A stretch of DNA of 64,000 nucleotides, taken from NCBI GenBank assembly GCA_963665845.2, contig OY762492.1, positions 3,168,001-3,232,000 on the forward strand. Direction: 5' to 3'. Below are positions 10,742-22,008 of this stretch, piece by piece (within the stretch, counting starts at the first letter, position 1; every line of letters starts with the position of its first letter). The notes below the pieces were generated by a model that saw nothing but the letters and a program-made list of their open reading frames with translations, made no database searches and was not told the origin of the DNA. This DNA is from Candidatus Poribacteria bacterium. GTDB lineage: Bacteria; Poribacteria; WGA-4E; GCA-2687025. A program made the translations under genes and the position numbers.

Positions 10742-10758
10742 ATTCTGCAAGCCGCTTC

Positions 10759-12618
10759 TTAGAGGTCGGAAATGTCCCAAAGGAGGATGGTACCGTCGCT
10801 GCTTACGCTGACGATCGTTTTTCCGTCCGGGGAGTACTCCGCCGAATAGACCGTATCCGTATGCCCTTTGAGCGTTTTGATTGTTTTGCCCGTCTCGGCG
10901 TCCCAGATGCGTATCGTTTTATCCCCGCTCGCGCTGGCGATCGTCTTTCCGTCCGGGGAATACTCCGCCGAAAGGACCCCATCGGTGTGTCCTTCGAGCG
11001 TTTTGATCGTCTTACCCGTTTCGATGTTCCAGATGCGTATCGTTTCATCCCAGCCCGAGCTGACGAGCTTCTTTCTATCCTGCGAATATGCCGCCGAATA
11101 GATCTGAACGATATGCCCTTTGAACGTTTGGATCGTCTTGCCCGTCTCGGTATTCCAGATGCGTATGATATTGTTGCGGTCCGAGCTGACGATCGTTTTT
11201 TCGTCCGGGGAATATGTCGTCGGGTAACCCCTTCCGATGAGTCCTTTGATCCTTCTGATCTCTTTGCCTGTTTCGGCGTCCCAAATGTAGATCGTGTTGG
11301 ATGCGCACCCGACGATTCTCTTTCCGTCCGGCAAAAACGCCGGTCTTCCCATATTCCCTGGGATATACCTAAATGTTTGGAGAAGCGCGCCCGTTTCGGC
11401 GTTCACTATCCGCATCTTTTGGGCGCCTAGGAGGGCGATCGTTTTTCCGTCCGGAGAATATACCGCCTCACTCGCATACCATCCAGCGTTTTCTTCGAAC
11501 CTGTTGGAAAACGCGCCGGTCTCGATGTCCAATATCTTGATCGGTCCGCGAAACCCAACAGCGAGCCGTTTGCCGTCCGGCGACAACGCAGCGCATCTGA
11601 CTATGTAAAAATGTCCGTAAAACGTACGGACAAGAGCGCGAAGCTTGATGTTCCATATGTGAATATTCTTGCTGTGGAATAGACTGCCTGCAATGAAATG
11701 ACCGTCCGGCGAAAACGCGATCGAAGAAGCGCCTTTTTTCTTGTCGATCGGATAAAGAGGCGAGCCGTAAGCGACATTCCACAGCGTCAGTTTGAAAGAG
11801 TCTCCGCCGGCGAGATGGTTCCCGTCCAGCGAAAATGCGGCGGCGCGCTGGCCCTGAATGTCCCATGGCAGCGTTCGTATGAATTCTCCTGTCTTCGAGT
11901 TCCAAATCCGAACCTTAGCGCCCATGCTGGCGAGGATCGTTCCGTCCGGCGAATATTCCGCCCAAACGACATCGTCTGTATGCCCTTTGAGCGTGTTAAT
12001 CAGTTCGCCCGTCTCGGCGTCCCAGATGCGAACCGTCTTGTCTCTGCCTGCGCTGACGATTCGTTTGCCGTCCGGCGAATACGCCGCCGAGTTGACCCAA
12101 TGTGTATGCCCATTGAGCGTCTTGAGCGGCGCGCCTGTCTCGGCGTCCCAGATGCGAACTGTCTGGTCTCTGCCTGCGCTGACGATTCGTTTGCCATCCG
12201 GAGAATACAAGGCTGATCTGACGATTTGTTGATGCCCTTTGAGCGTTTTGAGAAGCGCGCCTGTCTCGGCGTCCCAGATGCGGATGATGTTGCTGTAGCT
12301 GGCGCTGACGATCGTTTTCCCATCTGGCGAATACGCCGCGGAGTTGACCCAGCCCTCATGCGCGCCAAGGAGGGCGATCTCGCCGCCGTAGAGCGCGTCG
12401 TAGATCCATATGCCAATGCTGCTGGCGGCGGCAAGACGCCGACCGTCCGGCGAGTAGTCGACCGAATGGACAGACCCCCTGCCGATGCGCAGCTTGGCGC
12501 CGTCCGGAAGCCCAAGCTGCGAGATGAGCGGCGAGGGAGAGGCATAAAAAACGCAGCATAGAAAAAGGCAGGCGCATAGCCAATAAAAGCGGCAATTGTA
12601 TCTGCGGGGGAGGTTCAT
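10759..12618 (-). CDS. Secreted WD40-repeat protein, array copy 6 (last in transcription order)
   Basis: 619 aa; Cys-rich leader; 14 SPDG-type blades; ends LLWDISDL. Confidence 0.92.
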   Translation of the reverse strand: MNLPRRYNCRFYWLCACLFLCCVFYASPSPLISQLGLPDGAKLRIGRGSVHSVDYSPDGRRLAAASSIGIWIYDALYGGEIALLGAHEGWVNSAAYSPDGKTIVSASYSNIIRIWDAETGALLKTLKGHQQIVRSALYSPDGKRIVSAGRDQTVRIWDAETGAPLKTLNGHTHWVNSAAYSPDGKRIVSAGRDKTVRIWDAETGELINTLKGHTDDVVWAEYSPDGTILASMGAKVRIWNSKTGEFIRTLPWDIQGQRAAAFSLDGNHLAGGDSFKLTLWNVAYGSPLYPIDKKKGASSIAFSPDGHFIAGSLFHSKNIHIWNIKLRALVRTFYGHFYIVRCAALSPDGKRLAVGFRGPIKILDIETGAFSNRFEENAGWYASEAVYSPDGKTIALLGAQKMRIVNAETGALLQTFRYIPGNMGRPAFLPDGKRIVGCASNTIYIWDAETGKEIRRIKGLIGRGYPTTYSPDEKTIVSSDRNNIIRIWNTETGKTIQTFKGHIVQIYSAAYSQDRKKLVSSGWDETIRIWNIETGKTIKTLEGHTDGVLSAEYSPDGKTIASASGDKTIRIWDAETGKTIKTLKGHTDTVYSAEYSPDGKTIVSVSSDGTILLWDISDL

Positions 12619-12628
12619 AAGCCGCTTC

Positions 12629-20117: not shown

Positions 20118-20127
20118 TAGCCGTCTC

Positions 20128-22008
20128 CTAAAGGTTGGAGATGTCCCACAAGAGAATGGTACCGTCGACGCTGGCGCTTGCGAGCGTCTTTCCGTCCGGG
20201 GAATACGCCGCCCAGTAGACCGGTCCCGTATGCCCTTTGAGCGTTTTGATGGTTTTGCCCGTTTCAACGTCCCAGATGCGTATCGTTTTATCTTCGCCCG
20301 CGCTTGCGAGCGTCTTTCCGTTCGGCGAATACGCTGCCGCCTCGACCGAACCCTTATGCCCTTTGAGCGTTTTGATGGTATTGCCCGTTTCGGCGTCCCA
20401 GATGCGTATCGTGTTGTCCGCGCTTGCGCTGGCGATCGTCTTGCCGTTCGGCGAATACGCCGCTGAATAGATCCGCCCTGCGTGTCCTATGAGCGTTTTG
20501 ATGATTTTGCCCGTTTCGGCGTCCCAGATGCGTATCGTATTGTCGCTGAACGCGCTGGCGATCGTCTTGCCGTTCGGCGAATATGTCATCGAATATGCAT
20601 GTCCTATGGGTCCTTTGATCGCTTTGATCGTTTTGCCTGTTTCAGCGTCCCAGATGTAGATCGTTTTGTCGCTGCTCGCGGCGATTCTCTTTCCGTCTGG
20701 GGAATATGCCAGATTCTCGATCGTATCCGGCAGGCGCGTAACTGTTTTGATTGTCTTGCCCGTCTCGGCGTTCAGTATCTGTATTTCTCTTCGACTGCCC
20801 ATGAGAGCGGCGATCTTCTTTCCGTCCGGGGAATACGCCGCCTCCTGCACAAACTCGAACGCGCCGACTTTTTCTTTGAACATGCTGGAAAACGCGCCGT
20901 TCTCGATGTCCAATAACTTGATCTTCGCTTTCAGCTGAAACCCAATTGCGAGACGCTTGCTGTCCGGCGAAAATGCGGCGTACTCGGGGCTGAAAAAATG
21001 CCCGTCAAACGTGCGGACAAGCGCGCGAAACTTGATGTTCCAAATGCGAATATTCCCGCCGTATCGACCGCCCGCAATGAAATGGCCGTCCGGCGAAAAC
21101 GCGAGCGAAGACGCGCCTCCGCCCGTGTGAATCGGCTGAAGAGGCGAACCGTAAGCGGCGTTCCAAAGCGCCAGTTCGTAGACATCCCCGCCTGCAATAT
21201 ACTTCCCATCCGGCGAAAACGCGGCGGTAAGACCCTTAGCGTCGCGCTTCGATAGCTTTCGCAAATGTTCACCTGTCTGCGCGTCCCATATCCGAATCGT
21301 ATCGTACCTGCTTGCGCTGGCGATGATCGTTCCGTCCGGCGAATACGCCGCCCAATCCACGATGTAGTGATGCCCTTTGAGCGTCTTGAGCGGTTCGCCC
21401 GTTTCGGCGTTCCAGATGCGAACCGTCTTGTCTCCGCCGGCGCTGACGATTCGCTTTCCGTCCGGGGAAAAGGCGGCAGAGGCGACCGTATTCGTATGTC
21501 CTTTGAGCGTTTTGAGAAGGGCGCCTGTCTCGGCGTTCCAGATGCGAACCGTCTTGTCTCTGCCCGCGCTGACGATTCGCTTGCCGTCCGATGAATACGC
21601 CGCCGAAAGGACCCTGTCCGTATGTCCAGTCAATGCTTTCAGCGTCTCAAAGGTTTGGGCGTCCCAGATGCGGATGGCGCTGTCGCCGCCGGCGCTAACT
21701 ATCGTCTTGCCGTCCGGCGAATATGAGGCTGAATGAACCGCCTCTGTATGTCCGCGCAGCAGGGCGATCTCCCCGCCGTAAAGCGCGTCGTAGATCCATA
21801 CGCCGAGGCTGCTTGCGGCGGCGAGACGCCGACCGTCCGGCGAGTAGTCGACCGAATGGACCGACCCTCGACCGATGCGCAGCTTGGCGCCGTCCGGAAG
21901 CCCAAGATCGGAGATGAGCGGCGAGGACGACGCCTGAACGACGCAGCAGAGGAAGAGGCTGGCGCATACAAGATGGAAATGCCGATTGAATCTGCGGGGG
22001 ATGTTCAT
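20128..22008 (-). CDS. Secreted WD40-repeat protein, array copy 1
   Basis: 626 aa; leader CASLFLCCV; GLPDGAKLRIGRGSV cap; ends LLWDISNL. Confidence 0.92.
   Translation of the reverse strand: MNIPRRFNRHFHLVCASLFLCCVVQASSSPLISDLGLPDGAKLRIGRGSVHSVDYSPDGRRLAAASSLGVWIYDALYGGEIALLRGHTEAVHSASYSPDGKTIVSAGGDSAIRIWDAQTFETLKALTGHTDRVLSAAYSSDGKRIVSAGRDKTVRIWNAETGALLKTLKGHTNTVASAAFSPDGKRIVSAGGDKTVRIWNAETGEPLKTLKGHHYIVDWAAYSPDGTIIASASRYDTIRIWDAQTGEHLRKLSKRDAKGLTAAFSPDGKYIAGGDVYELALWNAAYGSPLQPIHTGGGASSLAFSPDGHFIAGGRYGGNIRIWNIKFRALVRTFDGHFFSPEYAAFSPDSKRLAIGFQLKAKIKLLDIENGAFSSMFKEKVGAFEFVQEAAYSPDGKKIAALMGSRREIQILNAETGKTIKTVTRLPDTIENLAYSPDGKRIAASSDKTIYIWDAETGKTIKAIKGPIGHAYSMTYSPNGKTIASAFSDNTIRIWDAETGKIIKTLIGHAGRIYSAAYSPNGKTIASASADNTIRIWDAETGNTIKTLKGHKGSVEAAAYSPNGKTLASAGEDKTIRIWDVETGKTIKTLKGHTGPVYWAAYSPDGKTLASASVDGTILLWDISNL

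What the first reader, a model, noticed from the sequence alone, without database searches (positions are those of the whole stretch)
10751..22008. Six-gene tandem array of secreted ~14-blade WD40 proteins with constant scaffold and variable loops: candidate diversifying receptor repertoire
Seen: six ~1.87-kb units joined by a conserved junction (TGGGACATCTCCRACYTYTAGGARRCGGCTWATGAAC); the last gene still ends in TAAGAAGCGGCTT, as if another unit was lost. Near-invariant blocks (GLPDGAKLRIG; LWNxAYGSPLxP..AFSPDGHF..IWNIKLRALVR) alternate with variation concentrated after GH (HQQIV, HQHIV, HTRPV, HTRQV, HTEMV, HTDRV) and after IVSA (SYSN, GRDG, NPYK, GNDK, SDDN, GGDS). Blades 8-10 are most divergent and locally AT-rich. 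Known: equivalent top-face positions are under diversifying selection in fungal HET-E/HNWD WD40 repeats, and sponge symbionts are rich in eukaryote-like repeat proteins. Inference: an array generating binding specificities for host, phage or competitor ligands by unequal crossover and gene conversion.
Basis: partly seen in the sequence, partly recalled or inferred. Interest (0 to 1): 0.7.

Follow-up and report, generated by a model that had tools for sequence, protein, structure and literature searches.

The report
Exported WD40 binder array in Poribacteria
Six neighbouring genes of a likely sponge-dwelling bacterium encode ring-shaped proteins, predicted to be exported, that keep one framework but differ at the few residues such rings usually use to grip partners, so they likely form a slowly evolved panel of different binders with unknown targets, one of many such gene clusters in this genome.

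Summary
The array is real: six intact, co-oriented genes (619-626 aa, signal-like N-terminus, 14 WD40 blades, predicted double propeller) in a Candidatus Poribacteria-type genome that holds 111 WD40 genes, 80 of them in 24 clusters. A congener has four genes at this locus, and copies are mosaic, so duplication, loss and sequence exchange are supported. The scaffold is conserved (dN/dS 0.15-0.2). Variation concentrates at the top-face positions selected in fungal HET-E. Positive selection is supported but model-dependent: dN/dS 1.6-2.0 at three hotspots among paralogues under a conservative multi-nucleotide model (0 of 120 neutral simulations reached 1.65), 0.5-0.8 between orthologues, but about 1 in pooled and blade-level tests. 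No allelic variation appeared in four runs (three samples, one study), and the genome showed no reverse transcriptase. So it reads as a fixed, neofunctionalised panel rather than a live diversity generator. Ligands and export beyond the periplasm are untested. The family's promoter-like element is missing before the first gene. WD40 expansion in Poribacteria and hotspot variability are published, and this scan noted a like pattern in another Poribacteria genome.

The parts
20128..22008 (-). g1: 626 aa, signal-like N-terminus plus 14 WD40 blades; blade 2 is of the g2 type (mosaic)
18246..20117 (-). g2: 623 aa, most divergent copy; 4-residue C-terminal read-through shared with the first gene of the G001 array
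16387..18249 (-). g3: 620 aa; start overlaps the g2 stop (ATGA)
14508..16376 (-). g4: 622 aa; blade 13 is 95% identical in DNA to g3 blade 13
12629..14497 (-). g5: 622 aa; groups with the third and fourth genes of the G001 array (87% and 83% DNA)
10759..12618 (-). g6: 619 aa, last gene of the array
20112..20148 (-). g1/g2 junction: end of last blade, stop, 10-nt spacer with ribosome-site-like purines, ATG
18244..18281 (-). g2/g3 junction, one base longer than the others
16371..16407 (-). g3/g4 junction
14492..14528 (-). g4/g5 junction
12613..12649 (-). g5/g6 junction
10749..10758 (-). spacer-like 10-mer after the g6 stop, with no ATG behind it
22024..22067 (-). strong terminator-like hairpin and T run after the upstream symporter gene, ending about 15 nt before the g1 ATG; the family's promoter-like element is absent here

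Best explanation
This is a tandem array of six related 14-blade WD40 genes, predicted to encode Sec-exported double-propeller binding proteins, that likely grew by duplication and patchwise sequence exchange, after which selection likely drove the top-face contact residues of each new copy apart and then held them, leaving a slowly changing panel of binders likely aimed at different host-side proteins. Shown: intact genes, conserved scaffold, different copy number in a congener, mosaic tracts, fast top-face sites. Statistically supported but model-dependent: positive selection among paralogues and constraint among orthologues. Inferred: Sec export, onward export by the genome's type II secretion system, protein ligands held in the cleft between the two propellers, and a sponge or other invertebrate host as the source of those ligands.
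For: Copy number 6 against 4 between the same flanking genes, which are 92-95% identical (symporter 73%) while array genes' best hits are 72-79%. Interrupted copies of the family occur at two other G001 loci. Two G001 copies share 432 identical nt at 90% overall. g1 blade 2 sides 33:6 with the g2-type gene against the opposite trend elsewhere, p 8e-12. PHI-like test p 0.002. Within-gene homogenisation of blades 11-14, permutation p 0.0006. 43 of 43 canonical blades have different residue sets at the four HET-E sites. Six window genes, three hotspots, multi-nucleotide model: dN/dS 1.65-1.94, LRT 9.2-17.5, scaffold 0.15-0.17; 0 of 120 neutral simulations with recombination reached 1.65 or LRT 9.2. 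Branch model: 1.8-2.0 on paralogue branches, 0.5-0.6 on orthologue branches, p<1e-6 for the difference. AlphaFold2: 14 four-stranded blades, pLDDT 84.9, pTM 0.83; best match 2ymu, then other double propellers. Hydrophobic N-terminal stretch ending in Ala, no lipobox, in 6 of 6. Type II secretion cluster and Omp85 genes in the genome.
Against: With double-base changes allowed (rate 0.11, also found in 11 housekeeping orthologue pairs) the pooled ten-gene four-site dN/dS is 1.05-1.16, not significant; M8 against M8a falls from LRT 50-58 to 3.3-5.1; blade-level estimates are 0.92-1.10. Simulated neutral sites give an apparent 1.39 under the simple model. The three-site class and the branch split were applied after I had seen per-site and pairwise results. 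Synonymous-run tests of conversion among the six are not significant after correction (best 0.24). The six lack the TIGR04183 tail that 51 other places in the genome carry above cut-off, so they may stay periplasmic. The family's promoter-like element is missing before g1. No ligand, expression or host evidence.
Confidence: 0.5

Rival explanations
1. Same evolutionary history, but the proteins stay in the periplasm and act as a panel of inhibitors or decoys for incoming foreign proteins (competitor toxins, host lytic enzymes, phage proteins), as arrays of immunity genes do.
For: No TIGR04183 tail, lipobox or other anchor; single-domain binders with no effector domain; positive selection among paralogues fits conflict. 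The likeness to immunity-gene arrays is recalled, not tested.
Against: No toxin gene among the 37 window proteins scanned (11 had no Pfam match at 1e-6); a type II secretion cluster offers a way out; orthologues keep their residues across a species split, slower than an arms race would suggest.
Confidence: 0.2
2. Neutral birth and death: repeats promote unequal crossover, the scaffold is kept for folding, and the exposed top-face residues simply drift (dN/dS about 1) without distinct specificities.
For: Pooled, M8 and blade-level tests under the multi-nucleotide model give about 1; simulation shows how 1 looks like 1.4; in three other arrays of the genome the same sites give 0.4-0.9; possible promoter loss.
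Against: The same sites are below 1 on orthologue branches and above 1 on paralogue branches, which uniform drift does not give; neutral simulations never reached the observed value; all six frames are intact.
Confidence: 0.2
3. A live diversity generator: the array, now without its own promoter, serves as a store of cassettes that recombine with each other or with promoter-bearing single copies elsewhere, giving fast allelic variation as in HET-E or antigenic variation loci.
For: Promoter-like element before 5 of 5 other first or single family genes in G000 but not before g1; strong hairpin just upstream; recent 432-nt identical tract in G001.
Against: No variant alleles in contigs of four runs, three samples, one study, apart from cross-mapping paralogues and one depth-3 contig; longest identical run among the six is 77 nt; array genes form their own clades apart from the single copies; the G001 array has the promoter; no reverse transcriptase found in a 90%-complete genome.
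Confidence: 0.08

Closest known systems
Eukaryote-like WD40 repeat proteins of Poribacteria and sponge microbiomes (Kamke et al. 2014, PMC3909097; Karimi et al. 2017, PMC5735121; passages read)
   Same: Same phylum and repeat family, high copy number, proposed host interaction.
   Different: Those papers count domains; the passages read give no tandem array, copy-number or selection analysis. Many poribacterial WD40 proteins carry a TIGR04183 tail, these six do not.
HET-D/HET-E (HNWD) WD40 sensor domains of Podospora anserina (Paoletti et al. 2007, PMC1805685; Ament-Velasquez et al. 2025, PMC12222747; passages read)
   Same: Same four repeat positions vary, repeats and genes exchange sequence, and a double-propeller clamp is predicted.
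   Different: No HET or NACHT domain, signal peptide instead; repeats 68% alike in DNA on average against 80-100%; blade number fixed at 14; no allelic polymorphism seen; diversity lies between tandem genes, not between alleles.
Highly-Repetitive prokaryotic WD40 proteins (Hu et al. 2017, PMC5587647; section 11 and passages read) and WRAP propellers such as PDB 2ymu (Pereira and Lupas 2022, PMC9218822; passages)
   Same: Conserved blades with diverse hotspot sites; 14 blades; 2ymu is the best structural match (38% identity).
   Different: Internal identity 0.31-0.40 by their criterion, far below the 0.7 cut-off; predicted exported and free-standing, not part of a signalling or STAND protein.

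Membership tests
WD40 repeat proteins | PF00400 repeats above cut-off, GH...WD pattern | tested here: met
   330-406 bits against cut-off 27 in 6 of 6; 5-7 full tetrad patterns per protein
WD40 repeat proteins | Beta-propeller fold (here two 7-blade propellers) | tested here: met
   Predicted model, pLDDT 84.9, pTM 0.83; matches to double propellers
Poribacterial eukaryote-like WD40 proteins | Encoded in a Poribacteria genome rich in WD40 genes | tested here: met
   Non-WD40 genes of named Poribacteria loci L013 and L014 mostly 85-96% identical to G000 genes; 111 WD40 ORFs
Poribacterial eukaryote-like WD40 proteins | TIGR04183 C-terminal tail (a subset only) | tested here: not met
   0 of 53 matches fall in the array
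HNWD/NWD fungal NLRs (HET-E type) | HET and NACHT domains before the repeats | tested here: not met
   Only signal-like N-terminus and blades
HNWD/NWD fungal NLRs (HET-E type) | High internal conservation, repeats 80-100% identical | tested here: not met
   Within-gene blade DNA identity mean 0.68, max 0.87
HNWD/NWD fungal NLRs (HET-E type) | Diversifying selection at the four top-face codons | tested here: inconclusive
   1.4-2.0 under single-base models; 1.05-1.5 under multi-base models, significant on paralogue branches only; position 25 about 0.9
HNWD/NWD fungal NLRs (HET-E type) | Exchange of repeats within and between genes | tested here: met
   weaker and older than in HET-E
HNWD/NWD fungal NLRs (HET-E type) | Allelic polymorphism in repeat number and sequence | tested here: inconclusive
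   None seen in contigs of 4 runs, 3 samples, 1 study, possibly including the source
Highly-Repetitive WD40 (Hu et al. 2017) | Six of eight contiguous repeats at least 0.7 identical | tested here: not met
   0.31-0.40
Diversity-generating retroelement | Reverse transcriptase and template repeat | tested here: not met
   No PF00078 match in G000, 90% complete; none in the window
Type II secretion substrate | Sec or Tat signal plus export through the secretin | not testable with these tools
   Signal-like N-termini and a gspE-K/D cluster are present; substrate status needs experiment

The most novel reading that the evidence does not exclude
A bacterial symbiont has convergently built an exported, germline-encoded receptor repertoire on the WD40 double propeller, selecting on the same contact positions as fungal allorecognition receptors; about 17 family members per genome each clamp a different host or competitor protein, and promoterless arrays such as this one serve as a sequence store for new specificities.
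Probability: 0.2. Interest if true: 0.72.

Novelty: new variant of a known kind. Interest (0 to 1): 0.4.

Why it matters
What the abundant eukaryote-like repeat proteins of sponge symbionts do is a long-open question. This array offers six small, single-purpose, intact paralogues with a known short list of specificity residues and orthologue pairs that kept or changed them, which makes a ligand screen and hotspot-swap test straightforward. It also gives codon-level support, model-dependent, that bacterial exported WD40 proteins were selected for different partners at the positions used by fungal non-self receptors. It is not a new kind of system: the expansion, the hotspot variability and the fungal precedent are published.

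Tried and rejected
No RNA holder listed, so expression is open. Metagenome scan with the six-protein alignment: 80 loci kept of 247, best 37-46% identity, no close array. Of 40 other genomes searched only the congener G001 matched at 1e-100, so strain-level comparison rests on one congener. Variant letters in the runs were read as other WD40 copies cross-mapping (depth equal to a second copy; many near copies in G000, though none matched a variant set exactly); one depth-3 contig in X3 with three letters of the neighbouring blade was not seen in the deeper run of the same sample and was set aside. Diversity-generating retroelement rejected. Lipoprotein rejected (no lipobox). Tat export not supported (twin Arg absent in g3 and g4; motif recalled). 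The generic promoter scan found nothing before g1. ESM Atlas returned only generic WD40 clusters; NCBIfam only sub-cut-off propeller families. The 950-kb array had too few canonical columns to test. No complex prediction was run, as no partner candidate exists. Literature: searches listed no paper on tandem WD40 arrays or selection in Poribacteria; Podell et al. 2019 (ISME J) was seen only as a reference entry, and supplements of Kamke et al. were not opened, so either may bear on novelty. bioRxiv 2023.06.09.544420 and PMC8546597 (passages) hold no 'WD40'.
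Full report
Observation. The minus strand from 22008 to 10759 holds six intact genes of 619-626 aa (g3 starts at 18249). Each has a hydrophobic N-terminal stretch ending in Ala, without lipobox, and 14 WD40 blades. 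Identity is 55-71% aa and 66-80% DNA. Four of five junctions match the quoted pattern exactly, none expected by chance; the fifth has one extra base. Blades 9-10 are the most divergent (0.48), blade 1 the least (0.83), and blades 8-10 are only slightly lower in GC. AlphaFold2 on the six-sequence alignment gives a helix at 9-23 and 14 four-stranded blades, the N-terminal strand 41-45 being the likely closing strand of the last blade (pLDDT 84.9, pTM 0.83; single sequence 78.0 and 0.55). Foldseek returns 2ymu first, then other double propellers.

Context. The closest proteins in the genome collection are from Candidatus Poribacteria (56-61%, loci L013 and L014), and their non-WD40 neighbours are mostly 85-96% identical to G000 genes, so G000 belongs to that phylum; a sponge host is inferred from the phylum, not shown. 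G000 has 111 ORFs with four or more blades, 6.7% of the genome, 80 of them in 24 same-strand clusters, four of six genes, one of seven and one of nine. Twenty-one ORFs share the N-terminal motif, about 17 with the same 14-blade size. The six lack the TIGR04183 tail found at 53 places in the genome. The genome has Omp85 genes and a type II secretion cluster, GspG and GspD above cut-off, so a route out exists but is not shown for these proteins.

Birth, death and exchange. Of 40 other genomes searched, only the congener G001 has the family at 1e-100. Between the same symporter and Pup-ligase genes it has four copies, and lacks the convergent WD40 gene at 8747-10741. The tree pairs g2 with its first gene and g5 with its third and fourth, and leaves g1, g3, g4, g6 and its second gene unresolved. 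Two other G001 loci hold interrupted copies. Exchange: two G001 copies share 432 identical nt at 90% overall; g1 blade 2 sides 33:6 with the g2 type, p 8e-12; a PHI-like test gives p 0.002, and blades 11-14 are more alike within genes than between, p 0.0006, while blades 2-5 are not, p 0.37. Against: synonymous-run tests among the six do not survive correction and the longest identical run is 77 nt, so exchange in G000 is old or short.

Selection. I fixed the test sites from two papers: Paoletti et al. 2007 (passages) report selected pairs flanking conserved codons in the d-a loop and b-c turn, my positions 5, 7, 23, 25; Wu et al. 2012 (PMC3419727; abstract and section 10, figure not seen) give hotspots R1-2, R1 and D-1, my 5, 7, 23. 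These are among the most diverse positions, with 10-16 residues each, and 43 of 43 canonical blades differ in their four-residue set. With my own codon-model code on ten genes and eight canonical blades, the four sites give dN/dS 1.4-1.6 (p 0.003 to 8e-6) against 0.17-0.20 for the scaffold, and M8 beats M8a by LRT 50-58, with 13 of 26 and 13 of 23 flagged sites at those four positions, which make up 53 of 614 columns. But models with double-base changes fit much better, at a rate of 0.11 also found in 11 housekeeping pairs. Then the pooled value is 1.05-1.16, M8's LRT is 3.3-5.1 and blade-level values are 0.92-1.10; simulation shows neutral sites would have given the apparent 1.4. The pooled value mixes two regimes: on orthologue branches 0.53-0.64, on paralogue branches 1.39-1.51 for four sites (p 0.011-0.0008) and 1.79-1.98 for three (p 1e-4 or less). 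For the six window genes alone the three hotspots give 1.65-1.94 and the four sites 1.27-1.44, the lowest not significant. In 120 neutral simulations, 90 with blade-specific trees and 60 of those with conversion-like tracts, none reached 1.65. These subsets were chosen after seeing the data, so I rate positive selection as likely, not proven. Seven dispersed family members give 0.92-1.90, three other arrays 0.37-0.90.

Is it diversifying now? Four runs (three samples, one study, possibly including the source) hold 92-95% of the words. All listed long contig pieces over the array match with no other letters; the few variant clusters look like other WD40 copies or one depth-3 contig. Contigs drop rare variants, so this shows no common alleles, not their absence. 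No reverse transcriptase was found. Orthologue pairs keep 13 of 15 and 12 of 18 hotspot residues.

An unexplained point. A TTGAYN-17-TANNNT element stands 23-30 nt before the ATG of 5 of 5 other first or single family genes examined in G000 and 8 of 9 in G001 (the exception is an internal gene), at a genome background of 0.006 per 100 nt. It is absent before g1, where a 15-pair hairpin with a T run (z -4.3) is followed almost at once by the ribosome site, about 50 nt less than in G001; no match lies on the minus strand of the array or its upstream operon. A contig of run X3 covers this place without difference. The array may depend on read-through, be weakly expressed, or be newly silenced; no RNA data exist.

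Mechanism. Most likely a panel of exported double-propeller binders that arose by tandem duplication, were reshuffled by occasional conversion, diverged at the contact face after each duplication, and were then held. Binding in the cleft between propellers is by analogy to the predicted HET-E/HET-C clamp (PMC12222747, passages). Host-side ligands (0.5), periplasmic decoys (0.2), drift (0.2) and a live generator (0.08) cannot be separated without experiment.

Novelty. WD40 abundance in Poribacteria and sponge microbiomes, diverse hotspots in repetitive bacterial WD40 proteins and selection at these positions in fungi are published. Nine searches listed no analysis of such arrays in Poribacteria, but Podell et al. 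2019 was not available. This scan noted a like pattern in another Poribacteria genome and in a eukaryote. It works somewhat like HET-E but is not a member of that family. Verdict: a new variant of a known kind, interest 0.4.

Noticed in passing
L156:6095-12712 (G000:C1 about 935,000-941,700, minus strand): A 2205-aa ORF matches the T9SS translocon SprA model (181.7 bits, cut-off 200; PF14349 hit), in a genome with 53 TIGR04183 matches. Kamke et al. 2014 found no Por secretion structural genes in Poribacteria, so this may be the missing export route.
   Followed up: partly
L155:3096-17818 (G000:C1 2,723,000-2,738,000): Type II secretion cluster (GspE, F, G, H, I, J, K-like, PilM-like, GspD) next to two CPBP intramembrane proteases and followed by an ankyrin-repeat protein.
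   Followed up: partly
window 5509-8692: Proteasomal ATPase (ARC-like) and Pup-ligase genes, conserved at 93% in G001; a pupylation-type system in Poribacteria.
   Followed up: no
window 8747-10741: A different 664-aa WD40 gene on the plus strand, two propellers split by a Pro/Lys-rich linker, ends 17 nt from the array's end; absent at this locus in G001.
   Followed up: partly
window 24670-24835: Between argG and the metallo-beta-lactamase-fold gene the runs show very high summed depth with many loose ends, which suggests a small repeat shared by many loci or organisms.
   Followed up: no
window 22089-23717: The dicarboxylate symporter is far more diverged from its G001 counterpart (76% DNA, about four times the synonymous distance) than other flanking genes (89-93%), which suggests replacement by recombination next to the array.
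   Followed up: no
G000:C1 1,881,487-1,902,675 and 949,686-963,938: Nine-gene and six-gene arrays of WD40 proteins that carry the TIGR04183 tail.
   Followed up: partly
window 3334-4107, 40004-43931, 29796-30938, 54431-57337: IS1595-family transposase; two tandem SpoIVB peptidase S55-like genes; two DNA methyltransferase genes.
   Followed up: no
window 10759-22008: Net charge of the mature proteins differs widely: g1, g3, g4, g6 are basic (+9 to +18), g2 and g5 acidic (-18, -14).
   Followed up: no
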